Shown: piece after piece, positions 4,493 through 59,962 of the stretch
Position numbering within the stretch: the stretch's first letter is position 1
Layout of the letters: every line of letters starts with the position of its first letter
Source of the DNA: Candidatus Limnocylindria bacterium
GTDB lineage: Bacteria > Chloroflexota > Limnocylindria > QHBO01
Direction: 5' to 3'
NCBI GenBank assembly: GCA_036556695.1
Contig: DATBIY010000047.1
Location: 12,809-76,808, forward strand
Length of the DNA: 64,000 nt
Program-made: the position numbers and the translations under genes
Notes under the pieces: generated by a model
What the model saw: only the letters and a program-made list of their open reading frames with translations
Told to the model about the DNA's origin: nothing
Databases searched by the model: none

Positions 4493-7400
4493 GGGAGGGG
4501 ACCATCGCCACGCCGACGACCGAGCCCGCAGCCTGGGAGGGCCAGGAGCGGAAGATCGTCACCATCCTGTTCGCCGATGTGACAGGCTCGACGGCGCTGG
4601 GCGACCAGCTGGACCCCGAGCGGCTGCGCGCCCTGCTGGGCGCCTACTTCCGCACCATGGCCTCGGTGGTCGAAGCGTGGGGCGGCTCGGTGGAGAAGTT
4701 CATCGGCGATGCGGTGATGGCCGTCTTCGGCGTCCCGAACGTCCGCGAGGATGACGCCGCACGTGCGCTGCATGCCGCGCTGGAGATGAGCGAGCGCCTG
4801 GTGGAGCTGAACCGGCAGCTGGCTCGGGATCACAACGTCACGCTCGAGATACGGACCGGGATCAACACCGGCGAGGTGGTGGCGCCGATGGGCGACGCGC
4901 CGAGCCAGCGCATCGTGGCCGGCGACGCGGTCAACGTCGCCGCGCGCCTGGAGCAGGCCGCGGAGCCGGGGACCATCCTGGTGGGCGAGCGAACGCACGC
5001 GGCCACCAGCACCGCCTTCGAGTTCGAGGGCCCGACGCCCCTCACCCTGAAGGGCAAGCCGGACCCGCTGCCGGCGTTCCGCCTGCTCCGCGCCAGCGGC
5101 GAGGCGCGCCGCGGCATTCCGGGCCTGCGGGCGCCCCTCATCGGGCGCGACGCCGAGCTCGCCACGCTGCTGGCCGCGCTGGACGAGACGATCGCCAGCG
5201 GCATGCCGCGGCTGGTGCTGGTCTACGGGCCGGCCGGCATCGGCAAGAGCCGGCTCTCCGCTGAGTTCCTTGCCGCGGCGCAGGCCCGGGTGCCCGATCT
5301 TCGCTTCCTGCGGGGCCGAAACCTGGCCGCCGGTGAGGGCGTCACCTACTGGGCGCTGGCCGAGATCGTGCGGGGCGCCTACGGCATCGGGCTGGACGAT
5401 CCTGCCGAGTCGGTCGCCGAGCGGATGCGCGCCGGTGTCGCCAGCACGCTTGCGGCACTCGCCCTGGATGCGGCCGAGTCTGAGCTCACCACCCAGGCGC
5501 TGGCGGCGACCATGGGCGTCAAGCTCGGCTCGGAAGGTCCATCGATCCACGCCGATGAGCTGGCGCGTGCCTGGACGCGCTTCGCCAGCGCCTTTGCGGC
5601 CGCCGGGCCGGCGGTGTGGCTGGTGGAGGATCTGCACTGGGCGGGGGCGCCGGCCCTGGAGATGCTCGAGCGCATCGCAAACCGGGCCACCGGCCCGCTG
5701 GTCATCCTGGCCACAGCGCGCCCCGAGTTCGTCGAGGCGCACCCGGGCTTCGGGGCCGCCGGCGGCGCGCCGCCCACGGCCGTCTCCCTGCGACCGCTGA
5801 CCGACCAGCAGGGAGGCGAGCTGGTCGAGCAGCTGCTCGCCGTGGCCGAGCTGCCCACGGCGCTCCGGGCCGAGATCCTGGGCAAGGCGGAGGGCAATCC
5901 CTTTTTCGTCGAGGAGATCGTGCGGCGGCTGATCGACGAGGGGTGTGCTGGTCCAGGAGGGAGATCATTGGCGAGCGACCGATGCGGCACGCACGGCGAC
6001 GATCCCCGACAGCATCTATGCGCTGCTGGCGGCTCGGGTTGACGCCCTGGCCGCAGGGGAGCGACGGGTGCTGCAGGAGGCCGCGGTCATCGGGCGCACC
6101 TTCTGGGCCGCCGCGGTCGCGCACGCCCTGCCAGGTGATGAGGTCGCCGAGTCGCTCGCGGTCCTCGAGCGCCGCGGCCTGGTCGTCGTGCGACCGACCA
6201 GCAGCCTCGGTGGGCAGGAGGAGTACGCCTTTCGTCATGCGCTGGTGCGGGAAGTCGCCTACGGCAGCCTTCCCAAAGCGCGCCGCGCGCGGGCACATGC
6301 CGAGGCCGGCGACTGGATCTTGGCCCTCGCCGCCGACCGTGGCGAGGAGTTCGCCGAGCTGATCGCCCACCACTTCGAGACGGCCATCGCGGGGGAGGAC
6401 GCCGACCTCGCCTGGCTGGAGGATGCCGGCGAGCGGGAAGCAGTGCGCGCCAAGGCGTACGCCTCACTCCTGGCCGCCGGTCGCGCCGCCCGCCGCACCT
6501 ACGCTCTGGCCCGAGCCGCCGAGCTCCACGGACGGGCGCTGGCACTGGCCGCCGACGACCTCGAACGAATGGCCGCCTACGAGCAGATCGGCCGGGACCA
6601 CGACCTGGCCTTCCACGGCGAGCTGGCGCTGGATGCCTACCGATCGGCGATCCAGATCGCACGGCGCAGCGATGGCCAGGAGGACGCACTGGCCCGGCTT
6701 GCGCGGCGCGCGAGCAGCCTGGCGTCGATGCGTGGCGGTTCCTTCCAGGTGGTCGTGGACCATGTCGAGATCGACGACCTGATCGGCGAGGGGCTGGATG
6801 CAGTGCGCGATCCTCGCGACCGGGCCGCGCTCCTCATCGCTCGCGCCGACATGGCCAGCCGCTGGTCCGTGCTCGACCAGCCCGATCCGCTCGGCATGGA
6901 CAAGCGCATGGCCGCCGCGGAGGAGGCTCGCGCCATCGCCGAGCAACTCCAGGATGCCGAGCTTGGGTTCGCCGCCGCGGACACCTTTGCCGACCTCAAG
7001 AACGTGATCGGCGACTACGGCGGGGCGGCGCGCGGTGTCGTGGCCGCATTGCCGCTGCTGGACCGCATCGAGGGTCGGGCCGCCAAGGCCCAGGCACTGT
7101 TCGAGGCGGCGCAGAACGTGCTGGTCACCGGCGACCCGGCAGGCGCGCTGCGGCTGGCCTACGCGTCGGCGGAGCTGGCCCGCCACATGTCGGCGCACGA
7201 CCAGATGCACGCCAGCGGGATGATCATGACTGCGGCCGACTGGATCGGCGACTGGGATCGCGTGGAGGCAGCCCTGGCGGAGCACCTCGCCAACATGGCA
7301 GAGGAGGGCAACGTCCGCTGTCTGCTGGTCCAGAGCGGACCAAACCGCGGCGCGCTAGTCGCGGCGCGGCGCGGAGACGCGGATGGTGCGCGAGCGTTGG

Positions 7401-38403: not shown

Positions 38404-39417
38404 ATGTCATCGCCGCGCCGCGCCCTCCCGTTGATACTCCTGGTGACCCTGCTGGTTGCCTGCACCCCGTCCTCGCAGTCGACGGCGTCGGCCAGCGCCG
38501 TCGCCTCCTCCGGCGGCCTGCGCTCGGTGCGTCTGCTGCTGGGCTTCCAGCCGGACGTGCAGTTCGCGCCGTTCTACATGGCGCAGCAGGCCGGCTACTT
38601 CCGCGACGCGGGACTGGAGGTGACCATCGAGTACAGCGACGACGTGCTGCGCCTGGTCGCGGACGGACAGGCACAGGTGGGTGTGGCCGATGCCACCGAC
38701 GTGATGATCGGCCGCACCGCCGGCATCCCCATCCGCTACGTCGCGACGCTGTACAAGCGCTTCCCGGTGGCGCTGATCGGGGCGCCGGAAACGGTGCCGG
38801 CGGATCCCGCGGACCTGGGCGGGCTGCGGATCGGCACCCCGGGACGCTTCGGCTCGTCGTGGCATGCCCTGGTGGCGCTGCTCGATGCCGGCGGGCTCAG
38901 CCCGGACGACGTCACCATCCGCGAGTACCCACAGTTCAACCAGGTGGAGGGGCTGCTCAACCGCGACGTGGACCTGATCACCGGCTTCGTGGCCAACGAG
39001 CCGCTGCGCCTGCGAGCCCAGGGCTTGGAGCCAGCGCTCATGACGGTCGACGAGTTCGCGCCGCTGCCCGGTCCGGGCGTCGTGGCTGGCGACGCGCTGC
39101 TGGAAGACGATCCAGAGCTGGTTGCGGCGTTTGCCGGCGCAGTCGTTCGCGCCCAGGAGGAGATCGCCGCGGACCCGGAACGCGGCATGGAGGCCGCCAT
39201 CGCCGAGGTCCCCGCCATCGCCGAGGACCGCGCAACTGCCCGCGCCGTGCTGAACGCGACCATCGAGGTATGGGATGCGCCGTTTTCCGGCGCGGTAATC
39301 CGCGACGTGTGGGACCAGGGCTACGAGACGATGCGTCGCCTGGCGTTCATCGATGGCTCGGTGCCGGTGGAGGACATGTACGACGTCACCGTCATGGGGG
39401 TGACGGACCCCCTCTAG
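38404..39417 (+). CDS. ABC substrate-binding lipoprotein, NMT1/THI5-like (SsuA/ThiY-like)
   Basis: Signal peptide with an LLVAC lipobox. NMT1-type fold residues. Confidence 0.8.
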   Translation: MSSPRRALPLILLVTLLVACTPSSQSTASASAVASSGGLRSVRLLLGFQPDVQFAPFYMAQQAGYFRDAGLEVTIEYSDDVLRLVADGQAQVGVADATDVMIGRTAGIPIRYVATLYKRFPVALIGAPETVPADPADLGGLRIGTPGRFGSSWHALVALLDAGGLSPDDVTIREYPQFNQVEGLLNRDVDLITGFVANEPLRLRAQGLEPALMTVDEFAPLPGPGVVAGDALLEDDPELVAAFAGAVVRAQEEIAADPERGMEAAIAEVPAIAEDRATARAVLNATIEVWDAPFSGAVIRDVWDQGYETMRRLAFIDGSVPVEDMYDVTVMGVTDPL

Positions 39418-39426
39418 GCGCTGCGC

Positions 39427-40335
39427 CTAGCGCTCGGTCGGCTGTTCGCTCCGCACCGGCATGGCCTCGGTCCACGGATCGCCATCGCCCACGCTGCGCT
39501 CGGCGGCCTGCACCGTCTGCTCCAGCAGCATCATGGTGGTCACCGGCCCGACGCCGCCCGGCACCGGGGTGATGGCGCGCACCACCGGGCGCAGCGCCGC
39601 GGTGTCGGCGTCGCCGACGATGCCGGCCGGGGTGGTGTTGATGCCGCAGTCGATGACCACCGCCGAGCGGTTGACCATCTCGGAGCGGATGAGGCCCGGC
39701 TGACCGGCGGCCGCCACAAGGATCTCGGCGCGACGCGTCTCGCGGGCGAGGTTGCGCGTACGCCGATGGGTGACCACCACGGTCGCGTCCGCCTGGAGCA
39801 GCAGGCCGGCGACCGGTCGCCCGACCACCGCCGAGCGTCCGACGACCACCGCACGCTTGCCGGCGACCGGGATCTGGTACGTGCGCAGGATGGCCATCAC
39901 CGCCAGCGCGGTGGCCGGCACGAAGGCACGGTCGCCGCGCGCCAGTCGTCCGGCATTCAGCGGGGTCGCGCCGTCGACGTCCTTGCCGGGGTCGATGAGC
40001 GCCACCACCGCCCCAGGATCGAGGTTGAGGGGCATCGGCTGGGCCAGCACGATCCCGCTGACCGACGGGTCGCGGTTCAGCGCGCCGATCCGTGCCGCCA
40101 GGTCGCTGAGCTGCACGCCCGCCGGCGGCACGATGTCGAGCGGCTCGATGCCGACGCTGCGCGCCGCCCGCGCCAGGCTGGCGGCATACACTGCCGAGGG
40201 GCCGCTCTCCTCGAAGCGCACCACAGCCAGCCGCGGCCGCGTTCCCGTTCGGTCCGCCAGGGTAGTTAGCCGCTCGCTCAGCTCACGCCAGATGCGCGAG
40301 GCGACCACCCGCCCGTCGAGCAGCTTCGCGCTCAC
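39427..40335 (-). CDS. folD: Bifunctional 5,10-methylene-THF dehydrogenase / 5,10-methenyl-THF cyclohydrolase
   Basis: The N-terminus [10 protein letters not shown] is FolD-typical and PGGVGPVT is the family signature. The start overlaps the upstream cyclodeaminase stop by 4 nt. Confidence 0.95.
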
Positions 40336-40985
40336 GAAGGCCTGATCCTCCGGTCGACCACGACCGTGGCCTCTTCCTCGGCCGCCGCAGCTAGCCTCGC
40401 CAGCCGCTCAAGCTCCGCCGGCGCGCTGGCACGGAGCGGCTCATCCGCCGCCAGGTAGGGCAGGTTGATCTGCACGTTCAGGATGGCGCCGCGCACCGCG
40501 GCTCTCGCCAGCAACGCCGCGACGCCGGCATCGCTGGCTGCGTTCGGGTTGCCGATGGGCGCGATGGCCCGCGCCAGCTCCACGACCTCGGCAGCCACCT
40601 GTGCGGCACGCAACGGCGCGTCGGCGGCCGCGACCATCGCGCGGGCCAGCTGTTGGCTGCGTGCCTGGCGCTGCTCGTCCGTCTCACGGGGCAGCCGGCG
40701 CGCCTCGACGACAGCGGCATACGCGCGCGAGTCCTCGTCGGCCAGGTCCAGCAGACGATCGCGCGCCTCGACGGCCGCGTCGCGGAGGCGCGTCAGCTCC
40801 TCGTGGTGATCGGCGGCATCCGGACGGCCGATGGTCAGCTCGGCGACCATCGAGACCAGGGACGCACCCATGGCGCCGGCCAGTGCGGCGGCCGATCCGC
40901 CGCCGGGAATCGGCTCGCGGGTGGCCAGGCGGTGGGTCAGCTCCCGGAGGGAAAGCTCATTCAGGCTGGTGGTCGGGTCCTCCAC
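40332..40985 (-). CDS. Formimidoyl-THF cyclodeaminase (FTCD C-terminal domain / FchA-like)
   Basis: The REPIPGGGSAAALAGAMGASLVSMVAELTIG motif is characteristic. GTG start at 40985. The upstream part of ORF 40332..41165 overlaps the small-protein gene. Confidence 0.8.
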   Translation of the reverse strand: MEDPTTSLNELSLRELTHRLATREPIPGGGSAAALAGAMGASLVSMVAELTIGRPDAADHHEELTRLRDAAVEARDRLLDLADEDSRAYAAVVEARRLPRETDEQRQARSQQLARAMVAAADAPLRAAQVAAEVVELARAIAPIGNPNAASDAGVAALLARAAVRGAILNVQINLPYLAADEPLRASAPAELERLARLAAAAEEEATVVVDRRIRPS

Positions 40986-41025
40986 TGGCGAGGGTCTCGT
41001 ACGCCTCGCCGCGGAGATTGTAGGG

Positions 41026-41286
41026 CTACGCCGCCTGGTCCAGCGCCTCCACGAACCAGCGACGCGCTCGGCCGTCGAAGACGAGCGAGGCCTGACCGGC
41101 ATCCGTCTCGACCAGGAAGGTGATGCGCGGGCCGCGATCCGCCGGATAGGCAGCCGTCTCGTCACGAACCGACTCGAGCCCGCGCACCGTGAGCTGGCGC
41201 TCTCCCATCTGGACGGAGAGCGGCCGCGCCTGCCGGCGATCCCAGCGGACGCGGGCGGGGGTGGGGGTGATCTTGGTGAGTGCCAT
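41026..41286 (-). CDS. Uncharacterised 86-aa protein, LexA-box controlled (candidate SOS-induced protein)
   Basis: High GC3, no TM helix. The ATG is preceded by a GGAG and by two SOS boxes flanking a TATAGT -10 element. Confidence 0.6.
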   Translation of the reverse strand: MALTKITPTPARVRWDRRQARPLSVQMGERQLTVRGLESVRDETAAYPADRGPRITFLVETDAGQASLVFDGRARRWFVEALDQAA

Positions 41287-41299
41287 GACCCTGGGCTCC

Positions 41300-41315
41300 A
41301 GAACAGGTGTTCGAA
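41300..41315. promoter_or_regulatory. LexA (SOS/Cheo-type) box aGAACAGGTGTTCGaa, 15 nt upstream of the small-protein start
   Basis: Perfect GAAC-N4-GTTC palindrome matching the Gram-positive/actinobacterial LexA consensus CGAAC-N4-GTTCG. Confidence 0.7.
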
Positions 41316-41330
41316 TAGGGCGCCACTATA

Positions 41331-41344
41331 CGAACAGGCGTTCT
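41331..41344. promoter_or_regulatory. Second LexA box CGAACAGGCGTTCT. Identical to the box upstream of lexA.
   Basis: Same 14-mer as at 44463-44476. A TATAGT -10-like hexamer sits between the two boxes on the minus strand. Confidence 0.7.
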
Positions 41345-41350
41345 AGTCTG

Positions 41351-42562
41351 TCAATCCTCAATTTCGGCCGATGGCGCGTCAGGCCGTTCGCCGAAATCCG
41401 GCCGACGACGGTCGCGGTGGCCCACCAGCCGCGCACGGGTGATGGCCTTCTCACCGAACCGCTCGCGCACCGCGTCGATCGACTGCGCGATGCGATCGGT
41501 CCGGTCCGGCGCGTCGAACAGGGTCAGCTGCTGAACGTTCGACAGGTTGATGGCCGTCAGGCCGATCAGTCGCACCGCGCGGTCGTCGTTCAGCGCCTTG
41601 CGCAGCAGGCTCACGCCCATCTCGTACAGCGGCTCAGAGTCGCGGACCTGGTGGCCCAGCGGCGCCTGGCGGGTGATGGTGTCGAAGCCCTCGTAGCGCA
41701 GCTTGAGCTGCACGGCGCCGGCGGCCAGGTCGTGGTGACGCAGCCGGCTGGCCACCGACTCCGCCAGGTCGAGCAGCGTCGCCTCCAGGCGGGCCGGGTC
41801 GGTGACGTCGTGGTCGAAGGTCAGCTCGTGGCCTACCGACTTCGGCGCCTGGCCGGAGCTGACGCGCGACGGGTCCACGCCCTGTGCGCGGAGGCGCAGG
41901 TCCAGCCCGTGGATCCCGAACCTGCGACGCAGCGTGCCTTCCGGCAGCGCCGCCAGCTGGCCGATGGTGGTCACGCCGTAGTCAGACAGCGCCTGCCGCG
42001 ACTGCGGACCCACGCCCCACAGCCTGGTCACCGGCAGCGGTGCCAGGAACTCCGCTTCGCCGCCGGGCGGCACCACCACCAGCGCGTCGGGCTTGCGCAG
42101 GTCGGACGCCACCTTGGCGCACAGCTTGTTGGTAGCCACGCCGACGCTGACCACGAGCCCCACCTCGTCGAGAACGCGCCGCTTGAGCTGACGCGCGATC
42201 GTCTCGCCGTTGCCAAAGGCCGCGCGGCTGGCGGTGACATCCATGAAGGCCTCGTCCAGGCTGATGGGCTCCACCAGCGGCGTGTAGCTGGCGAAGATGC
42301 GCATCACCTGGCGGCTCAGCTCGCGATAGCGGTCGAAGCGGCCGGGCAGGAAGACGCCACCGGGGCACAGCCGCTGGGCGGTGCGCAGCGGCATGGCGGA
42401 GTGCACCCCGAACCTGCGCGCTTCGTACGACGCGGCGCTGACCACGCCGCGCGCATTCGGGTCGCCGCCAACGATCACCGGCTTTCCCCGCAACGCGGGG
42501 TTGTCCAGGATCTCGACGCTGGCGTAGAAGGCGTCCAGGTCGGCATGCAGGATTGTGCGCAT
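41351..42562 (-). CDS. dinB: DNA polymerase IV (Y-family translesion polymerase)
   Basis: N-terminus ILHADLDAFYASVE with the catalytic aspartates. SLDEAFMDVT motif. The start is an internal ATG of ORF 41351..43162. Confidence 0.9.
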   Translation of the reverse strand: MRTILHADLDAFYASVEILDNPALRGKPVIVGGDPNARGVVSAASYEARRFGVHSAMPLRTAQRLCPGGVFLPGRFDRYRELSRQVMRIFASYTPLVEPISLDEAFMDVTASRAAFGNGETIARQLKRRVLDEVGLVVSVGVATNKLCAKVASDLRKPDALVVVPPGGEAEFLAPLPVTRLWGVGPQSRQALSDYGVTTIGQLAALPEGTLRRRFGIHGLDLRLRAQGVDPSRVSSGQAPKSVGHELTFDHDVTDPARLEATLLDLAESVASRLRHHDLAAGAVQLKLRYEGFDTITRQAPLGHQVRDSEPLYEMGVSLLRKALNDDRAVRLIGLTAINLSNVQQLTLFDAPDRTDRIAQSIDAVRERFGEKAITRARLVGHRDRRRPDFGERPDAPSAEIED

Positions 42563-42575
42563 GACCGCCGTCGGG

Positions 42576-43730
42576 TCAGTCGGTGCCGGGGTAGCGGGCA
42601 TAGACGCCCTGAGCCAGCGATGGCAGCAGCCGTGCGGCCTCAGCCTCGAGAGCATCGCGGTCGGTGCTCGACAGGCGCCCGAACGGCCGCAGCTCGGCGT
42701 GCACGCTGCCATCCGCCCGACGCCGTGGCAGCCACGTGCCGGCCACCATGCCGTCCAGCAGAAATGTCGGCAGCACATCGGCATTCTTGGTGATGACGGT
42801 GGACTGGTGCTCGGGCGGCAGGATGCGGCGCCGGTGCCTGGTCCCGAACGCCAGCAGCACGCTGTCCCAGCGCGCCAGCAACCGGGGCGGGACGGGAGTG
42901 TCCGGTGCCGGCCGGGGTGCATCGGCCAGGTCAACCAGCTCGCGGCCGTCCTCATCGCTGAAGCGCACCAGCCGGTCGCCGAGTGTCTGCAGCGCCGCGC
43001 GCCAGCGGCTGACCGAGCCGTAGCGGCCAATGTAGGCCAGCAGGTCGTCGACGCTGGCCGGCCCGAACGCGGCCAGGTACACCTCCGCCAGGTGAGCGGC
43101 GGCCCGATCCCAGTCGCTGGCGTCGTCGTCTGGGGGCCCGAGCACGTCAGCGGCCGCCACATACCGCTGCCGGCCGTACCGTTCGTCGTCGATGGGCGCG
43201 TGGACGAGCTGCACCGCGCCGCTGAAGTGGCGCCACAGGCCGCGATTGGGCAGCCGCAGCCCGTTCAGTTCACTGGCAAGAATCGCCTCGATCTCGGAGA
43301 TGCCGCGCGGCTGCTCGCGCATGGCGGCCAGCACCGCTCCATGCGCCGTGTCGATCTGGCGACCGAGCCGCGACGTCTGTGGATCCTCCTTGAAGAGAAG
43401 GCGCCATTGGCGCTGACGGATGGGCAGGCTGAGGGTCGACATCGGCCATAGGTCGTCTGCGGCAACGATATGCACCGTCATCCGCATCAGCGACGCGCGA
43501 ACCACTGACCTGCGCCGGCGCGCGGCAACCAGGTCGGGCGGAGGACGGTCAGGGCGGCGCCGGGTGTGCAGGGCCAGCGCCGGCCAGTCCGGATGCTGCG
43601 CCTGAATCGAGCCGATGCGGTGGACGAGTGCGCCGAGCGAGCGGTGCTCCAGCCCGCCGAGCAGCCCCTGCCGCGCCAGGGTGGCGCGGTTCAGCTCAGG
43701 CTGGCTGAGGACCTGCGACGTCGGCGGCAT
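42576..43730 (-). CDS. Winged-helix YcaQ/AlkZ-like protein (DUF1006), putative interstrand-crosslink DNA glycosylase
   Basis: N-terminal RATLARQGLL motif and family-typical length. Lies between lexA and dinB with intergenic gaps of 15 and 13 nt. Confidence 0.75.
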   Translation of the reverse strand: MPPTSQVLSQPELNRATLARQGLLGGLEHRSLGALVHRIGSIQAQHPDWPALALHTRRRPDRPPPDLVAARRRRSVVRASLMRMTVHIVAADDLWPMSTLSLPIRQRQWRLLFKEDPQTSRLGRQIDTAHGAVLAAMREQPRGISEIEAILASELNGLRLPNRGLWRHFSGAVQLVHAPIDDERYGRQRYVAAADVLGPPDDDASDWDRAAAHLAEVYLAAFGPASVDDLLAYIGRYGSVSRWRAALQTLGDRLVRFSDEDGRELVDLADAPRPAPDTPVPPRLLARWDSVLLAFGTRHRRRILPPEHQSTVITKNADVLPTFLLDGMVAGTWLPRRRADGSVHAELRPFGRLSSTDRDALEAEAARLLPSLAQGVYARYPGTD

Positions 43731-43745
43731 GTGCCAGTCCGGCGA

Positions 43746-44426
43746 TCAGCCGAGCTTGCGGATGACTCCGACGACCTTACCCTGGATCTGGACCTCGGTG
43801 GCGTAGATCGGTTCCATCTCCGCGTTGGCCGGCTGGAGGCGGATGCGGTCCTCTTCGCGGAAGAAGCGCTTGAGCGTGACGCCGTTGTCTTCCAGCAACG
43901 CAACCACGATGTCGCCGTCGCGCGCAGTGGCCTGCGGCTGCACCACGACGTAGTCGCCGTCGTCGATCAGCGCGTCGATCATGCTCTTGCCGCGAACCCG
44001 GAGCACGTAGCTGTCGTCGCGCGCCTGCATGGAGCGCGGCACGTCGAGGGACTCGGCGCCGTCAGCGTACGCCTCGATGGGCTGGCCGGCAGCGATCTCG
44101 CCGAGCACCGGCAGTGCCAGCACGTCGTGCTCGACCGGCATGCGGAAGGGGGTGATGCGGCCCATGCCCGCAGGCTGCCGTCGAGCCGGCTGCTCCGTCT
44201 CAGCCTCGGCCCGAGTGGTGAGCCGCAGGGCCCGAGAGGAGCGCGATCCGCGCTCGAGCATGCCTTCGCGCTCCAGGGCAATCAGGTGATGATGGACGGC
44301 CGATGGCGAGGCCAGCCCCACCGCGTCCGCGATCTCCCTGACCGACGGCGGGTAGCCGCGCTCGGCGACGGTCCGGGCGATGAACTCGACGATCTTCTGC
44401 TTGCGTTCGGCATCGTGCCGCGTCAT
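43746..44426 (-). CDS. lexA: LexA repressor
   Basis: N-terminal wHTH (PSVREIADAVGLASPSAVHHHL). Ala-Gly cleavage site. S24 peptidase Ser/Lys (VRGKSM). Confidence 0.95.
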   Translation of the reverse strand: MTRHDAERKQKIVEFIARTVAERGYPPSVREIADAVGLASPSAVHHHLIALEREGMLERGSRSSRALRLTTRAEAETEQPARRQPAGMGRITPFRMPVEHDVLALPVLGEIAAGQPIEAYADGAESLDVPRSMQARDDSYVLRVRGKSMIDALIDDGDYVVVQPQATARDGDIVVALLEDNGVTLKRFFREEDRIRLQPANAEMEPIYATEVQIQGKVVGVIRKLG

Positions 44427-44462
44427 GGCACGCCCTCTCTACAGCGGGTGCGCCGATGCTAG

Positions 44463-44476
44463 CGAACAGGCGTTCT
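44463..44476. promoter_or_regulatory. LexA box CGAACAGGCGTTCT in the divergent lexA / DUF1232 promoter region
   Basis: Palindrome 37 nt upstream of the lexA ATG and 67 nt upstream of the DUF1232 GTG. Confidence 0.75.
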
Positions 44477-44542
44477 ATTGTCAACCAAAATCCGACGCGC
44501 TGCTATCATCCGCGCTCACCCGACACCTGCGGAGGCCTTGGC

Positions 44543-45085
44543 GTGAACGTCACCGGCCGCCTGCGCTACCTGCGCCTGGCGCGTCTCATCTGGAAGCTCC
44601 CGACCTACGCGCGCGTGGTCTGGGGGCTGATGCGCGACCCGCGGACGCCACTGCCCCTGAAGGGCCTGCTGGCAGCCGGATTGGCGTACGTCGTCGTGCC
44701 ACTGGACCTGGTGCCCGACGCGGTCCCCATCCTGGGCCAGGCGGACGACCTGACGGTGCTGCTCCTGGTGCTGGACCTGTTCATCGCCAACGCGCCGCGC
44801 AAGGTGCGCGAGGAGCAGATGCGACGCGCGCACGACGGCACCGCGCAGCTGGACCGAGACCTGGCGCGGCTCCGCGCGCTGATGGGCGACCGCTACGACC
44901 AGATCCGCGACCGCCTTCCGGAGCTGCTGGAGCGCTACGGAGACCTGCGTGATTCGCGGGCGGTCAAGGGCCTGCTGCGCGACTGGCGGCTGCGCCGGCT
45001 GCGCGGCGCGGCCGACGCTGAAGATGAGCCGATGCCGCCGGCGGCGACCACGCCGCAGGGTGCACACGACGCCGGGTTGAACTGA
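44543..45085 (+). CDS. DUF1232 (YkvA-like) membrane protein
   Basis: Motif LLAAGLAYVVVPLDLVPDAVPILGQADD. GTG start with a GGAGG sequence 7 nt upstream. Confidence 0.7.
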   Translation: MNVTGRLRYLRLARLIWKLPTYARVVWGLMRDPRTPLPLKGLLAAGLAYVVVPLDLVPDAVPILGQADDLTVLLLVLDLFIANAPRKVREEQMRRAHDGTAQLDRDLARLRALMGDRYDQIRDRLPELLERYGDLRDSRAVKGLLRDWRLRRLRGAADAEDEPMPPAATTPQGAHDAGLN

Positions 45086-57022: not shown

Positions 57023-59962
57023 ATGTCCACGTGGTTCGACAAGCTCCTCGAGGAGCTGCAGCGCAGGCAGGCGGAGCAGGACGCCCGGCGCGAGGGCAGG
57101 CCGATTCCGCGCGCTCGCCGCACGAACGGCGGGGCGAACGGCGGAGACGGACAACCGCCGGGCGAACCGCGCACCGTGCTGTTCCCGCGGCGCAGCGGCG
57201 ATGGCGGAACGCCGGTTCGCCGCTGGGTCCTCATCGGCCTGCTGGTGGTGGCTGCCCTGTTCCTGCTTGGCATCGTCGGACGGGTCGTCGACCTGCTGAC
57301 CGACCTGCAGTGGTACGGCGCGCTGGGCCGTACCGAGGTGATGACCACCCGGCTGTGGGCACAGGTGGCGCTGTTCGGCATCGGATTCCTGGCCTTTGCC
57401 ATCCCGGCCATGGCCAGCATCTGGCTGGCGCGCCGCATCGCGCCGCAGGTGCCCATCCGCCGCATCGGCCAGTTCGAGATCCCGGATGCCTCGCGGGCCA
57501 TCACCATCGGTCTGGTGGCAATCGGCGCCTTCCTGGCGCTGATATCGGCGGGTGCCTGGAGCGCGAGCTGGCAGACGGTGCTGCTGTGGGCCAATGGCTC
57601 CGACTTCGGCAGGGTCGACCCGAACTTCGGCCGCGACATCGGCTTCTACGTCTTCGACCTGCCGTTCCTGCGCTTCGTGCAGGGCTGGGGCATCGCCGCG
57701 CTCATCGGCATCCTGCTGCTCAGCCTGGGCGCCTATGCGGCCGGAGCGCTGCGCTGGCAGTTCCGCCTGACCGCCCCGGTGCGGGCGCACATCTCGATCC
57801 TGGGCGCCCTGCTGCTGCTCCTCATCGCCGCCGGCTACCAGCTCGACATCCCGGAGCTGTCGTACTCGACCTCCGGCTACGAGTCGATCCAGGCCGCAAC
57901 CTACACCGACATGAATGCCCAGGTCCCGGCCTACGTGATCCTGACCTTCGTGGCCGTGGCGGCCGCCGTGCTGCTTCTGCTGAACATCTGGTTCCGCACC
58001 CTATGGGCGCTGGTCCTGGCCGGCGGCGCCTGGTTCGCCCTCTCGATCCTGGTGGGTGGCCTGTATCCGGCCTACGTCCAGAACTTCCAGGTCAACCCCA
58101 ACGAGCTGAACGTCGAGCGGCCGTACATCGCCAGGCACATCGGCTCAACGCGCGAGGCGTTCGGGCTCGACTCGATCGAGCTGCGCGAGTTCAGCGGCGA
58201 GCAGTCCCTTAACGAGGCGGTGTTCGACGAGGACGCCGCGACCATCGAAAACCTGCGGCTGTGGGACTACCGGCCGCTGCTGACGACTGTGCGCCAGGAC
58301 CAGATCCTGCGGCGCTACTACGAGTTCCTGGACGTCGACATCGATCGCTACGAGATCAACGGCGAGCAGCGCCAGATCATGCTCAGCGCCCGGGAGCTGG
58401 ACGTCGAGCAGCTGGCCGACGCGGCGCGCACCTGGACCAACGAGACCCTGGTCTACACCCATGGCTACGGCATCACCGCCGTGCCGGTCGACGGCGTCAG
58501 CGCGCAGGGCCAGCCCGATTACCTGGTCAGCGGCATCAACCGCGAACCGCAGCTGCCGGTTGGCCAGCCGCGCATCTATTTCGGCGAGGCGACCGATACC
58601 TACGTCGTCACCAACACCAACACCGCCGAGTTCGACTACCCGCTGGAGGAGTCATCGGAGGCGGGAGCCACCACCGTGTGGCAGGGCACCACGGGTGTCA
58701 GCATCGGCAACCCGTTCAGCCGGCTGCTCTACGCGCTGCGCTTCGGCGACCTCAACCTGCTGATCAGCAACCAGCTGACCGGCGACTCGCAGATCCTGTT
58801 CCGGCGCTCGCTGGCCGAGCGGGTGCCGCAGCTGGCGCCGTTCCTCCACTACGACCACGACCCCTACATCGTCAGCGCAGGCGAGCGGCTCTACTGGGTC
58901 TGGGACGCGTACACCGCGACCGATCGCTACCCGAACGCGCAGCCGCTGGACGACGGGGCCTTTGCCGGCGCCAACTACGTGCGCAACAGCGTCAAGGTGG
59001 TGGTGGACGCCTACGACGGCACGGTTCGCTTCTTCGTGGCCGATCCGGCCGAGCCCATCCTGGCCGCCTGGGCGCGCATCTTCCCGTCGCTGTTCGAGCC
59101 GATGTCGGCCATGCCGCAAGAGCTGGAGGCGCACCTGCGCTTCCCGGAGGACCTTTTCATCGCGCAGAACATGGCGTACCGGCTGTACCACCTGCCGGCC
59201 ACCGAGAACGGAGCGACGAACTTCTACAACCAGGAGGACCGCTGGGCGATCCCCGACGACGTGGTGACCGGCTCGGGCCAGCCCATGGAGCCGTACTACG
59301 TGATCATGCGCATCCCCGGCGAGGACGAGGCGGAGTTCGTGCTCATCCAGCCGCTGGTGCCCGAGCAGCGGCCGAACATGATCGCCTGGACCGCGGCGCG
59401 CATGGACCCGGGGGTGTACGGGCAGCGTATCGCCTTCCACTTCCCGAATGACACCTCGACCGACGGCCCGGCGCTGGTGGAGGCGCGGATCGACCAGAAC
59501 GACGCGATCGCCGCCCAGTTCGGCGTCTGGCAGCGGTCCGGCTCGTCCATCATCCGCGGCAACCTGCTGGTGCTGCCGCTCGGCGAGGACGGCCTGGTCT
59601 ACGTGGAGCCGATCTTCCTGCAGGCAAGCGGCGCGCCGTTCCCCGAGTTCGTGCGGGTCATCATGGTCGGCAACAACCGGGTCGCCTTCGCCGAGAACGT
59701 GGAGGACGCCATCGAGCAGATCCTGGGCGGCCAGGCGCCGCCGACGCCCGGCGGCCCGGGCGGACTGCCGGAGGACGTTGCCGGCCTGGTGACGGAGGCG
59801 CAGCGCCTGTTCGACGAGGCGCAGGCCGCGCTGGCCGCGGGCGACCTGGGCACCTACCAGGAGCGGCTGAACGAGCTGGAGCCCATTTTGGAGCGGCTGG
59901 GCGAGCTGACCGGCGCCTCGCCACAGCCATCGCCCAGCGCCGCCCCCAGCGCATCGCCGTAG
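57023..59962 (+). CDS. UPF0182-family large membrane protein (~980 aa)
   Basis: About seven N-terminal TM helices, a large extracytoplasmic domain and a Pro/Ser-rich tail. Architecture is typical of UPF0182 (COG1615). Confidence 0.85.
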   Translation: MSTWFDKLLEELQRRQAEQDARREGRPIPRARRTNGGANGGDGQPPGEPRTVLFPRRSGDGGTPVRRWVLIGLLVVAALFLLGIVGRVVDLLTDLQWYGALGRTEVMTTRLWAQVALFGIGFLAFAIPAMASIWLARRIAPQVPIRRIGQFEIPDASRAITIGLVAIGAFLALISAGAWSASWQTVLLWANGSDFGRVDPNFGRDIGFYVFDLPFLRFVQGWGIAALIGILLLSLGAYAAGALRWQFRLTAPVRAHISILGALLLLLIAAGYQLDIPELSYSTSGYESIQAATYTDMNAQVPAYVILTFVAVAAAVLLLLNIWFRTLWALVLAGGAWFALSILVGGLYPAYVQNFQVNPNELNVERPYIARHIGSTREAFGLDSIELREFSGEQSLNEAVFDEDAATIENLRLWDYRPLLTTVRQDQILRRYYEFLDVDIDRYEINGEQRQIMLSARELDVEQLADAARTWTNETLVYTHGYGITAVPVDGVSAQGQPDYLVSGINREPQLPVGQPRIYFGEATDTYVVTNTNTAEFDYPLEESSEAGATTVWQGTTGVSIGNPFSRLLYALRFGDLNLLISNQLTGDSQILFRRSLAERVPQLAPFLHYDHDPYIVSAGERLYWVWDAYTATDRYPNAQPLDDGAFAGANYVRNSVKVVVDAYDGTVRFFVADPAEPILAAWARIFPSLFEPMSAMPQELEAHLRFPEDLFIAQNMAYRLYHLPATENGATNFYNQEDRWAIPDDVVTGSGQPMEPYYVIMRIPGEDEAEFVLIQPLVPEQRPNMIAWTAARMDPGVYGQRIAFHFPNDTSTDGPALVEARIDQNDAIAAQFGVWQRSGSSIIRGNLLVLPLGEDGLVYVEPIFLQASGAPFPEFVRVIMVGNNRVAFAENVEDAIEQILGGQAPPTPGGPGGLPEDVAGLVTEAQRLFDEAQAALAAGDLGTYQERLNELEPILERLGELTGASPQPSPSAAPSASP

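What the first reader, a model, noticed from the sequence alone, without database searches (positions are those of the whole stretch)
40332..41350. Two tandem LexA boxes drive an uncharacterised 86-aa protein, with a formimino-THF cyclodeaminase and folD co-directional immediately downstream
The 64-nt gap between the dinB stop and the small ORF's start holds two GAAC-N4-GTTC palindromes: aGAACAGGTGTTCGaa at 41300-41315 and CGAACAGGCGTTCT at 41331-41344. On the coding strand a TATAGT -10-like hexamer lies between them. This is the geometry of a tightly repressed SOS promoter. The 86-aa product is MALTKITPTPARVRWDRRQ...FVEALDQAA. It has coding-type GC3 but no TM segment and no motif I recognise. 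It does not look like the known SOS division inhibitors (YneA/ChiZ carry LysM and a TM; SulA is unrelated), nor like DinI. Forty nucleotides downstream, with no obvious terminator, comes the FTCD-type cyclodeaminase. folD then overlaps that gene by 4 nt. DNA damage may therefore co-induce a new small effector together with one-carbon-folate enzymes, plausibly feeding 5,10-methylene-THF to thymidylate synthesis. A LexA-controlled folD operon is not something I know as established.
Basis: partly seen in the sequence, partly recalled or inferred. Interest (0 to 1): 0.62.

Follow-up and report, generated by a model that had tools for sequence, protein, structure and literature searches.

The report
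LexA-repressed small SOS gene beside dinB
A strong promoter carrying two LexA repressor sites controls a small protein of unknown function that is conserved across one class of uncultured soil and freshwater bacteria, while the folate genes just downstream have their own promoter and are probably not part of a designed DNA-damage operon.

Summary
Two perfect GAAC-N4-GTTC palindromes (41332-41343, 41301-41312) sit in a near-consensus promoter (TTGACA-18-TATAGT) in front of an 86-aa ORF. An identical operator lies in the promoter of lexA itself, 3 kb upstream. The window has 4 such palindromes against 0.32 expected.

In 66 species-level relatives (class Limnocylindria, Chloroflexota), every one keeps TTGAC plus a perfect box 4-5 nt after it. 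Of these, 53 keep a second box, mostly about 31 bp downstream.

The ORF is a real gene: dN/dS is about 0.23, length is fixed, and the AlphaFold2 model is confident (pLDDT 89.5, all-beta). It has no Pfam or NCBIfam hit and no fold relative. It is basic (pI 10.5) and ends in a conserved Ala-Ala, which suggests a degradation tag. It lies next to dinB in almost every relative.

The proposed LexA-folD operon is not supported as a design. A conserved TACAAT -10 element precedes the cyclodeaminase gene in 53 loci and is leaderless in 14. In 32 species another gene lies between the small gene and the folate genes, an opposite-strand formyltransferase in nearly all. The folate genes essentially never carry LexA boxes. 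Read-through in this particular genome remains possible.

Verdict: a new lineage-specific SOS gene under ordinary LexA control. Moderate interest.

The parts
44456..44484 (-). lexA promoter (TTGACA-17-TAGCAT) with one LexA box at 44464-44475 in the spacer
43746..44426 (-). lexA (226 aa; LexA_DNA_bind + Peptidase_S24)
42576..43730 (-). AlkZ-like DNA glycosylase gene, 15 nt after lexA
41351..42562 (-). dinB (Y-family polymerase; IMS, IMS_HHH, IMS_C domains), 13 nt after the AlkZ-like gene
41349..41354 (-). -35 hexamer TTGACA of the small gene's promoter; overlaps the dinB stop codon
   Evidence: TTGAC present in 66/66 related loci
41332..41343 (.). LexA box 1 (GAACGCCTGTTC on the - strand) in the 18-nt promoter spacer; identical to the operator in the lexA promoter
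41325..41330 (-). -10 hexamer TATAGT
41301..41312 (.). LexA box 2 (GAACACCTGTTC on the - strand), 31 bp centre to centre from box 1. Its position in the early transcribed region, just after the start site, is inferred.
41296..41299 (-). Shine-Dalgarno GGAG, 9 nt before the ATG; relatives have GAAGGAG
41026..41286 (-). 86-aa basic all-beta protein of unknown function, ending in Ala-Ala (coordinates include the stop codon)
41017..41022 (-). TACAAT, the conserved -10 element of the FTCD_C-folD genes' own promoter
40980..41016 (-). Stable stem-loop (-25 kcal/mol, z -4.2) that includes the FTCD_C GTG start; no U tract follows, so it is not a canonical terminator
40332..40985 (-). FTCD_C-domain cyclodeaminase / FchA-like cyclohydrolase gene (217 aa, GTG start)
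39427..40335 (-). folD (302 aa), overlapping the previous gene by 4 nt

Best explanation
Window 41287-41354 is a LexA-repressed sigma-70-type promoter. It drives a stand-alone SOS gene (41286-41026) that belongs to the lexA / AlkZ-like / dinB damage cluster of a Limnocylindria (Chloroflexota) genome.

How the promoter works (inferred from position):
- One LexA dimer on box 1 fills the -35/-10 spacer and blocks RNA polymerase binding.
- A second dimer on box 2, about three helical turns downstream, lies on the early transcribed region. It should block promoter escape and also read-through from dinB.
- With two perfect operators against one at lexA, the gene should be silent without damage and switch on later or at higher damage than lexA and dinB.

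The product is a 9.7-kDa, basic (pI 10.5), six-stranded all-beta cytoplasmic protein. Its C-terminus ends in Ala-Ala in nearly all full-length family members, even though the tail before it varies in length. I read this as an ssrA-like tag for ClpXP-type proteolysis, which would clear the protein quickly once LexA re-forms (inferred).

Its molecular target is not shown. My estimates:
- about 0.35: a damage checkpoint protein, a SulA-like arrest of division or replication;
- about 0.30: a modulator of the neighbouring Pol IV (DinB);
- about 0.35: something else.

The FTCD_C and folD genes downstream form a separate unit with their own conserved TACAAT promoter. In this genome the absence of the formyltransferase gene seen in many relatives puts that promoter 3 nt after the small gene's stop codon, so any SOS effect on folD would be incidental read-through.
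For: Regulation:
- 4 palindromes in the window against 0.32 expected.
- An 11/12 consensus promoter contains box 1, and the only other promoter-like site in 5.4 kb is lexA's, with the same operator.
- All 66 species-level loci with upstream sequence have TTGAC and a perfect box, starting 4-5 nt after the -35 in 61.
- 53 have a second box downstream, spaced 30-32 bp in 41 of them.
- Of 215 perfect boxes in 803 kb of related loci, 130 lie upstream of the small gene and 62 upstream of lexA.

Real gene:
- 285 close and 1178 wider homologues, all named ones from Limnocylindria or Chloroflexota.
- Mean pairwise difference of 0.46 at third codon positions against 0.17 at the first two, and median dN/dS 0.23.
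- AlphaFold2 pLDDT 89.5 and pTM 0.77.

Stand-alone unit:
- It keeps its two-box promoter when dinB is absent (L071) or is separated by opposite-strand inserts (L012, L015, L016, L049, L086).

Degradation tag:
- Ala-Ala ends 120 of 120 close homologues and 54 of 104 cluster representatives, including nearly all full-length ones with tails of different length.
- The background is 2.6% of 663 gene-like ORFs from these genomes.

Folate genes separate.
Against: - There is no experimental evidence of any kind: no LexA binding data, no transcript data, no protein data.
- The class has no tractable cultured model that I know of (own knowledge, not checked).
- The protein's function is pure inference. 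It has no domain, no fold relative and no informative fusions; the apparent fusions are gene-calling run-ons with IMS_C or FTCD_C.
- Adjacency to dinB is weak evidence for a functional link, because the whole region is syntenic across the class and the evidently separate FTCD_C gene is also usually adjacent.
- Ala is abundant in these high-GC proteomes. ClpXP recognition of a bare Ala-Ala end is extrapolated from E. coli.
- In the L059-L070 clade there is only one box within the promoter, so dual operators are not universal.
Confidence: 0.78

Rival explanations
1. The two-box promoter drives a three-gene operon (small gene, cyclodeaminase, folD), so that DNA damage co-induces one-carbon folate enzymes to supply 5,10-methylene-THF for thymidylate synthesis.
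For: - In this genome the genes are co-directional, with a 40-nt gap and no U-tract terminator.
- FTCD_C and folD overlap by 4 nt.
- The internal TACAAT has no recognisable -35.
- The small gene and the FTCD_C gene are directly adjacent in 39 of 71 related species.
Against: - A conserved TACAAT (or GAGAAT) -10 precedes the FTCD_C gene in nearly all loci, independent of the upstream gene. It lies 7-9 nt from the ATG in 14 loci, or about 25 counting the GAGAAT variant, which indicates leaderless transcripts that start there.
- In 32 species another gene lies between the two, an opposite-strand formyltransferase in nearly all. The FTCD_C gene there has no LexA box.
- In L074 the folate genes are elsewhere.
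- L060-L069 carry a long GC-rich hairpin after the small gene.
- In the window, a -25 kcal/mol hairpin would bury the FTCD_C start codon in read-through RNA.
Confidence: 0.15
2. The small protein is an accessory or regulatory partner of the adjacent Y-family polymerase DinB. It would be functionally comparable to UmuD' for UmuC or ImuA for ImuB, made late in the SOS response and removed by proteolysis.
For: - It lies immediately downstream of dinB in nearly all related loci that include the upstream region, across 35-100% protein identity.
- Its -35 overlaps the dinB stop codon, so derepressed dinB transcription runs into it.
- The precedent of Y-family polymerases encoded with small partners in SOS operons comes from established knowledge. 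UmuD is also a ClpXP substrate.
Against: - DinB works without such a partner in other bacteria, and this family is confined to one class.
- The gene has its own promoter and survives without dinB next to it in L071.
- It has no S24 or UmuD-like domain or fold.
- The QASLVF stretch resembles a clamp-binding motif, but it is a buried beta-strand and is not conserved.
- Synteny is conserved for unrelated neighbours too.
Confidence: 0.3
3. The small ORF is not translated. The conserved element is only a promoter/operator plus an untranslated leader or a small RNA.
For: There is no domain hit and no experimental evidence of the protein.
Against: - Fixed 86-87 codon length and a conserved GAAGGAG ribosome-binding site.
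- A substitution excess at third codon positions and dN/dS of 0.23.
- A confident all-beta model.
- Invariant residues across 35%-identity relatives.
Confidence: 0.02

Closest known systems
LexA/SOS operators of the GAAC-N4-GTTC type (Firmicutes and Actinobacteria, with variants reported in Chloroflexi; PMC4951493)
   Same: - The same 12-bp palindrome.
- It is placed over the promoter.
- It is also present at lexA itself (autoregulation).
- Tandem operators on tightly held genes have precedents: the E. coli lexA promoter has two operators (abstract of PMC9210283, listed), and recN, the colicin genes and B. subtilis yneA are further examples from my own knowledge.
   Different: This is a different lineage (class Limnocylindria), where to my knowledge the regulon has not been described; no paper in the library links the class to the SOS response. 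Binding by the cognate LexA is untested.
SOS-induced checkpoint proteins (SulA, YneA, DivS, ChiZ, SidA)
   Same: - Small, lineage-specific and tightly LexA-repressed.
- Encoded in or next to the lexA locus.
- Expected to be unstable.
- Like SulA, this protein is cytoplasmic.
   Different: - No sequence or domain relation.
- No TM segment or LysM domain, unlike YneA, DivS and ChiZ.
- A different, all-beta fold with no PDB relative.
- An effect on cell division is entirely untested.
UmuD/UmuD' and ImuA (partners of Y-family polymerases)
   Same: - Encoded next to a Y-family polymerase gene.
- Under LexA control.
- Beta-rich and small.
- Probably controlled by proteolysis.
   Different: - No S24 peptidase or RecA-like domain.
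- The gene lies downstream of the polymerase gene and has its own promoter.
- The polymerase is DinB rather than UmuC or ImuB.
Pfam DUF6504 (PF20114)
   Same: It is the only Pfam family hit by more than one family member: 3 of 26 diverse members, best E 1.7e-4 over about 63 residues. Its size is similar, at about 100 aa.
   Different: - All hits fall below the gathering score (22.3 against 24.2 bits), and the window protein itself gives no hit.
- DUF6504 is itself uncharacterised, and no paper in the searched library mentions it.
fchA/FTCD_C-folD one-carbon gene pairs
   Same: An FTCD_C-domain protein translationally coupled to bifunctional FolD. In many relatives the pair is divergent from a formyltransferase gene. 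This is an ordinary folate cluster.
   Different: Only its position, directly downstream of an SOS gene, is unusual. No LexA box is associated with it.

Membership tests
LexA (SOS) regulon, GAAC-N4-GTTC operator type | Perfect palindromic operator that is present more often than chance would give | tested here: met
   4 in the window against 0.32 expected; 0 of 100 shuffles reach 4
LexA (SOS) regulon, GAAC-N4-GTTC operator type | Operator overlaps core promoter elements | tested here: met
   Box 1 lies in the 18-nt spacer of TTGACA/TATAGT, and box 2 starts 13 nt after the -10
LexA (SOS) regulon, GAAC-N4-GTTC operator type | The same motif is present at the genome's own lexA gene | tested here: met
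   An identical TAGAACGCCTGTTCG lies in the lexA promoter spacer. 62 of the related loci carry a box upstream of lexA.
LexA (SOS) regulon, GAAC-N4-GTTC operator type | Operator conserved upstream of orthologues | tested here: met
   66/66 loci have at least one perfect box and 53 have two after the -35
LexA (SOS) regulon, GAAC-N4-GTTC operator type | LexA binding and damage induction | not testable with these tools
   Needs EMSA or footprinting and expression data
Operon small gene-FTCD_C-folD | Co-directional genes with no terminator between them | tested here: met
   40-nt gap; no U-tract terminator
Operon small gene-FTCD_C-folD | No internal promoter | tested here: not met
   A conserved TACAAT lies at 41022-41017. 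It is present in 53 loci and leaderless in 14.
Operon small gene-FTCD_C-folD | Gene order conserved in relatives | tested here: not met
   In 32 of 71 species another gene lies between the two, an opposite-strand formyltransferase in nearly all. In L074 the folate genes are elsewhere.
Pfam DUF6504 (PF20114) | Score at or above the gathering threshold (24.2 bits) | tested here: not met
   The window protein has no hit. The best family member scores 22.3 bits, E 1.7e-4; 3 of 26 members give sub-threshold hits.
SulA / YneA / DinI / UmuD | Family domain (SulA; LysM plus a TM segment; DinI; Peptidase_S24) or the matching fold | tested here: not met
ssrA-like C-terminal degradation tag (ClpXP C-motif 1) | Conserved C-terminal Ala-Ala-COOH | tested here: met
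   120/120 close homologues and nearly all full-length representatives despite variable tails; background is 2.6%
ssrA-like C-terminal degradation tag (ClpXP C-motif 1) | ClpXP-dependent degradation | not testable with these tools
   Needs stability assays with an Ala-Ala to Asp-Asp variant

The most novel reading that the evidence does not exclude
The 86-aa protein founds a new family and fold of SOS effector. It would be a cytoplasmic, ClpXP-timed damage checkpoint or Pol IV regulator specific to Limnocylindria, distantly related to DUF6504. That would give a first functional handle on that domain of unknown function. In this strain, the loss of the formyltransferase gene would additionally let SOS transcription run into the FTCD_C-folD genes.
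Probability: 0.3. Interest if true: 0.6.

Novelty: new member of a known kind. Interest (0 to 1): 0.35.

Why it matters
- **New regulon information.** To my knowledge the SOS regulon of Limnocylindria, an abundant uncultured soil and freshwater class of Chloroflexota, has not been described. This locus gives its operator sequence and promoter architecture. It also identifies a class-wide LexA target besides lexA itself.
- **Comparable proteins elsewhere.** Tightly repressed, short-lived small SOS proteins in other bacteria have turned out to be checkpoint proteins, toxins or polymerase managers. A new, structurally unmatched one next to dinB is therefore a reasonable candidate for heterologous study.
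- **The caution.** The attractive idea of a LexA-folD operon comes from local gene order and should not be carried forward as a regulatory principle.

Tried and rejected
- **Rfam scan.** A scan of 39300-44700 at E up to 1 gave one sub-threshold chance hit and nothing at the promoter or the FTCD_C leader.
- **Consensus fold of the FTCD_C leader.** RNAalifold on 30 leaders predicted no pairs. Only an ACGAGG Shine-Dalgarno-like block is conserved, so a riboswitch was rejected.
- **tRNA/tmRNA scan.** I ran this to read the lineage's ssrA tag. The window has none.
- **PDB sequence search** with the family profile found nothing.
- **tblastn against plasmids.** I used the most DUF6504-like member, hoping to reach annotated DUF6504 loci. 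It returned only chance hits.
- **Apparent domain fusions.** The long representatives with IMS_C or FTCD_C domains are run-on gene calls across neighbours, not true fusions. One carries a subtilase N-terminus and was not followed.
- **Clamp-binding motif.** QASLVF was rejected because it is a core beta-strand and is not conserved.
- **SiwR 'DinB' paper (PMC10693628).** It concerns the unrelated DinB/YfiT metalloenzyme superfamily.
- **Fourth palindrome.** The one at 57207 lies inside a UPF0182 coding sequence and is treated as chance.
Full report
**What is in the sequence**

All genes discussed here lie on the minus strand. In order they are:
- lexA (44426-43746);
- an AlkZ-like glycosylase gene (43730-42576);
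- dinB (42562-41351);
- a 64-nt gap;
- an 86-codon ORF (41286-41026);
- a 40-nt gap;
- an FTCD_C-domain gene (40985-40332, GTG start);
- folD (40335-39427), which overlaps the previous gene by 4 nt.

The 64-nt gap reads TTGACA-gacta-GAACGCCTGTTC-g-TATAGT-ggcgccctattc-GAACACCTGTTC-t-GGAG-cccagggtc-ATG.

GAAC-N4-GTTC occurs four times in the window against 0.32 expected:
- Two copies lie in this gap.
- A third, the same 12-mer as box 1, lies in the spacer of the lexA promoter, TTGACA-17-TAGCAT.
- The fourth lies inside a UPF0182 coding sequence and is probably chance.

A consensus scan of 5.4 kb found only two promoter-like sites, these two, against 0.2 expected.

**Conservation of the regulatory architecture**

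The ORF's product is identical to a hypothetical protein annotated in 'Candidatus Limnocylindria bacterium' MAGs. That taxon is a class of the phylum Chloroflexota. A scan of one genome per species returned 80 loci with 35-90% protein identity.

Of the 66 loci that include upstream sequence:
- All have TTGAC and at least one perfect box.
- The box starts 4-5 nt after the -35 in 61 of them.
- 53 have a second perfect box downstream of the -35, spaced 30-32 bp centre to centre in 41. That is about three helical turns.

One clade (L059-L070) has a single box inside the promoter and a -10 hexamer 6 nt from the ATG, which suggests a leaderless mRNA.

Across 803 kb of related loci there are 215 perfect boxes. 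Of these, 130 lie upstream of the small gene and 62 upstream of lexA. Most of the remainder are upstream-of-small boxes that my window rule mislabelled. Only one lies upstream of the FTCD_C gene.

GAAC-N4-GTTC is the established LexA motif of Firmicutes and Actinobacteria, with variants reported for Chloroflexi (PMC4951493).

The small gene is therefore a class-wide LexA target. That conclusion rests on inference from sequence. No binding data exist.

**The gene is real and stands alone**

- **Selection.** Forty ungapped orthologous coding sequences differ at 0.46 of third positions against 0.17 of first and second positions. Median dN/dS is 0.23.
- **Conservation.** Length is fixed at 86-87 codons, and a GAAGGAG ribosome-binding site is conserved.
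- **Structure.** AlphaFold2 gives a confident six-stranded all-beta model, with pLDDT 89.5 and pTM 0.77.
- **Position.** The gene lies just downstream of dinB in nearly all loci.
- **Independence.** It keeps its own two-box promoter where opposite-strand genes have been inserted between it and dinB: an EamA transporter and others, in L012, L015, L016, L049 and L086. It also keeps the promoter where a transaldolase gene lies upstream instead, in L071.

**What the protein is**

- **No known domain.** There is no Pfam or NCBIfam hit.
- **A narrow family.** A profile search of 1.84 billion representative proteins found only 104 clusters. A wider search found 1178 proteins, and the named ones are from Limnocylindria or Limnocylindrales.
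- **DUF6504.** The only recurring weak signal is Pfam DUF6504, hit by 3 of 26 diverse members with a best E of 1.7e-4, below the gathering score. That family is uncharacterised, and no paper in the library mentions it.
- **Composition.** The protein is basic (13 Arg, pI 10.5), hydrophilic and 9.7 kDa.
- **Conserved residues.** Family-wide invariant residues cluster in the beta3-beta4 loop (R41-x-E43, A46, G52-P53-R54) and at W77.
- **C-terminus.** The protein ends in Ala-Ala in 120 of 120 close homologues. The same is true of nearly all full-length distant representatives, although the tail before it varies from 0 to about 30 residues. Only 2.6% of 663 gene-like ORFs from these genomes end that way.

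The last two alanines and the free carboxylate are the key determinants of the ssrA tag for ClpX, and several E. coli SOS proteins such as RecN and UmuD' are ClpXP substrates. Both points come from established knowledge and were not checked here. I therefore infer a C-terminal degradation tag that limits the protein's lifetime.

**Likely mechanism**

Shown by sequence and comparison:
- A strong promoter occupied by two LexA sites. One lies between -35 and -10, and the other lies on the early transcript on the same face of the helix.
- lexA / AlkZ-like / dinB form a tight co-directional cluster (gaps of 15 and 13 nt) behind a single-operator promoter.

Inferred:
- The small gene is held more tightly than lexA and dinB and is induced later or at higher damage.
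- Box 2 also blocks read-through from dinB while LexA is present.
- The product is removed quickly after the response ends.

Small size, lineage restriction, location in the lexA cluster, tight repression and probable instability together resemble the SOS checkpoint proteins (SulA, YneA, DivS, ChiZ, SidA). These are mutually unrelated and specific to their lineages. The same features also fit a manager of the neighbouring Y-family polymerase, as with UmuD or ImuA.

The two roles cannot be separated with the present data. I put them at about 0.35 and 0.30.

**The folate genes**

Comparative data argue against that as a designed unit:
1. The motif (G/C)TACAAT lies upstream of the FTCD_C gene in 53 loci. 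The window copy is at 41022-41017, 3 nt after the small gene's stop codon.
2. In 14 loci the motif ends 7-9 nt before the ATG. In the Limnocylindrales clade a GAGAAT variant sits at the same distance. This is the geometry of leaderless transcripts that begin at the FTCD_C start codon.
3. In 32 of 71 species another gene separates the small gene from the FTCD_C gene. In nearly all of them it is a formyltransferase gene of about 282 aa on the opposite strand. Of these 32 loci, 30 carry the same TCTAGCCCGTACAAT 75-85 nt upstream of the FTCD_C gene.
4. The folate genes have no LexA boxes in any lineage, with one exception that looks like chance.
5. In L074 the folate genes lie elsewhere.
6. L060-L069 have a long GC-rich hairpin after the small gene.

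The FTCD_C-folD pair, often with a divergent formyltransferase gene, is therefore an ordinary one-carbon cluster with its own promoter that happens to lie next to the SOS cluster.

In the window genome the formyltransferase gene is absent and no U-tract terminator separates the units. Some damage-induced read-through is therefore possible. However, a -25 kcal/mol stem-loop (41016-40980, z -4.2) would pair the FTCD_C GTG start in such read-through RNA. Its outer stem lies upstream of the predicted TACAAT start site, so native transcripts would escape it. This last point is inference, and the outer stem is not conserved in L008.

**Verdict**

- **Observation.** Confirmed, and stronger than stated: there is a perfect -35, the same operator sits at lexA, and the architecture is conserved across the class.
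- **Interpretation.** Partly right. A new LexA-controlled small protein is supported. A LexA-folD operon is not.
- **Novelty.** A new, lineage-specific member of the SOS regulon under canonical control.
- **Interest.** Moderate (0.35). It rests mainly on the unknown, structurally unmatched protein with a probable degradation tag next to dinB.

Noticed in passing
window 42576-44484: lexA, an AlkZ-like (PF06224) DNA glycosylase gene and dinB look like one LexA-autoregulated operon, with gaps of 15 and 13 nt and a single box in the lexA promoter. The AlkZ-like gene is present in only about half of the related loci.
   Followed up: partly
L059-L070 (about 5976-6001 and 6346-6365); L075-L086 (about 6270-6290): Both the small gene (TATTCT, 6 nt, ATG) and the FTCD_C gene (TACAAT or GAGAAT, 7-9 nt, ATG) appear to be leaderless in these clades. 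This suggests leaderless translation is common in Limnocylindria.
   Followed up: partly
L009-L049, about 6260-7150 in locus coordinates: A formyltransferase gene (Formyl_trans_N/C) of about 282 aa is present or absent between the small gene and the FTCD_C gene. Where present, it is convergent with the small gene, with stop codons only about 4 nt apart, and divergent from the FTCD_C gene. Both states occur among the window's closest relatives.
   Followed up: partly
window 57207-57218: A fourth perfect GAAC-N4-GTTC lies about 185 nt inside a UPF0182 membrane-protein coding sequence. It has no promoter context and lacks the usual TA/TC flank, so it is probably a chance occurrence.
   Followed up: yes
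window 40980-41016: A very stable stem-loop (-25 kcal/mol, z -4.2) includes the GTG start of the FTCD_C gene. No U tract follows it, and the outer part of the stem is not conserved in the closest relative without the formyltransferase gene (L008).
   Followed up: partly
L019, L023, L040, L049, L053, L063, L070: These loci carry the Limnocylindria-type lexA-dinB-small gene cluster but sit in MAGs labelled Dormiibacterota, Methylomirabilota, Zixiibacteriota, Steroidobacteraceae, Pleomorphomonadaceae or Vicinamibacterales. The contigs are probably mis-binned.
   Followed up: no
proteins P0153, P0202: These are predicted proteins in which an FTCD_C N-terminus is joined to the C-terminal half of the small protein. 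They could be assembly or gene-calling chimeras, or local rearrangements.
   Followed up: no
window 44456-45085 (+ strand): A DUF1232 gene is transcribed divergently from lexA. The single lexA operator lies about 70 nt upstream of its likely start, so it may or may not share LexA control.
   Followed up: no
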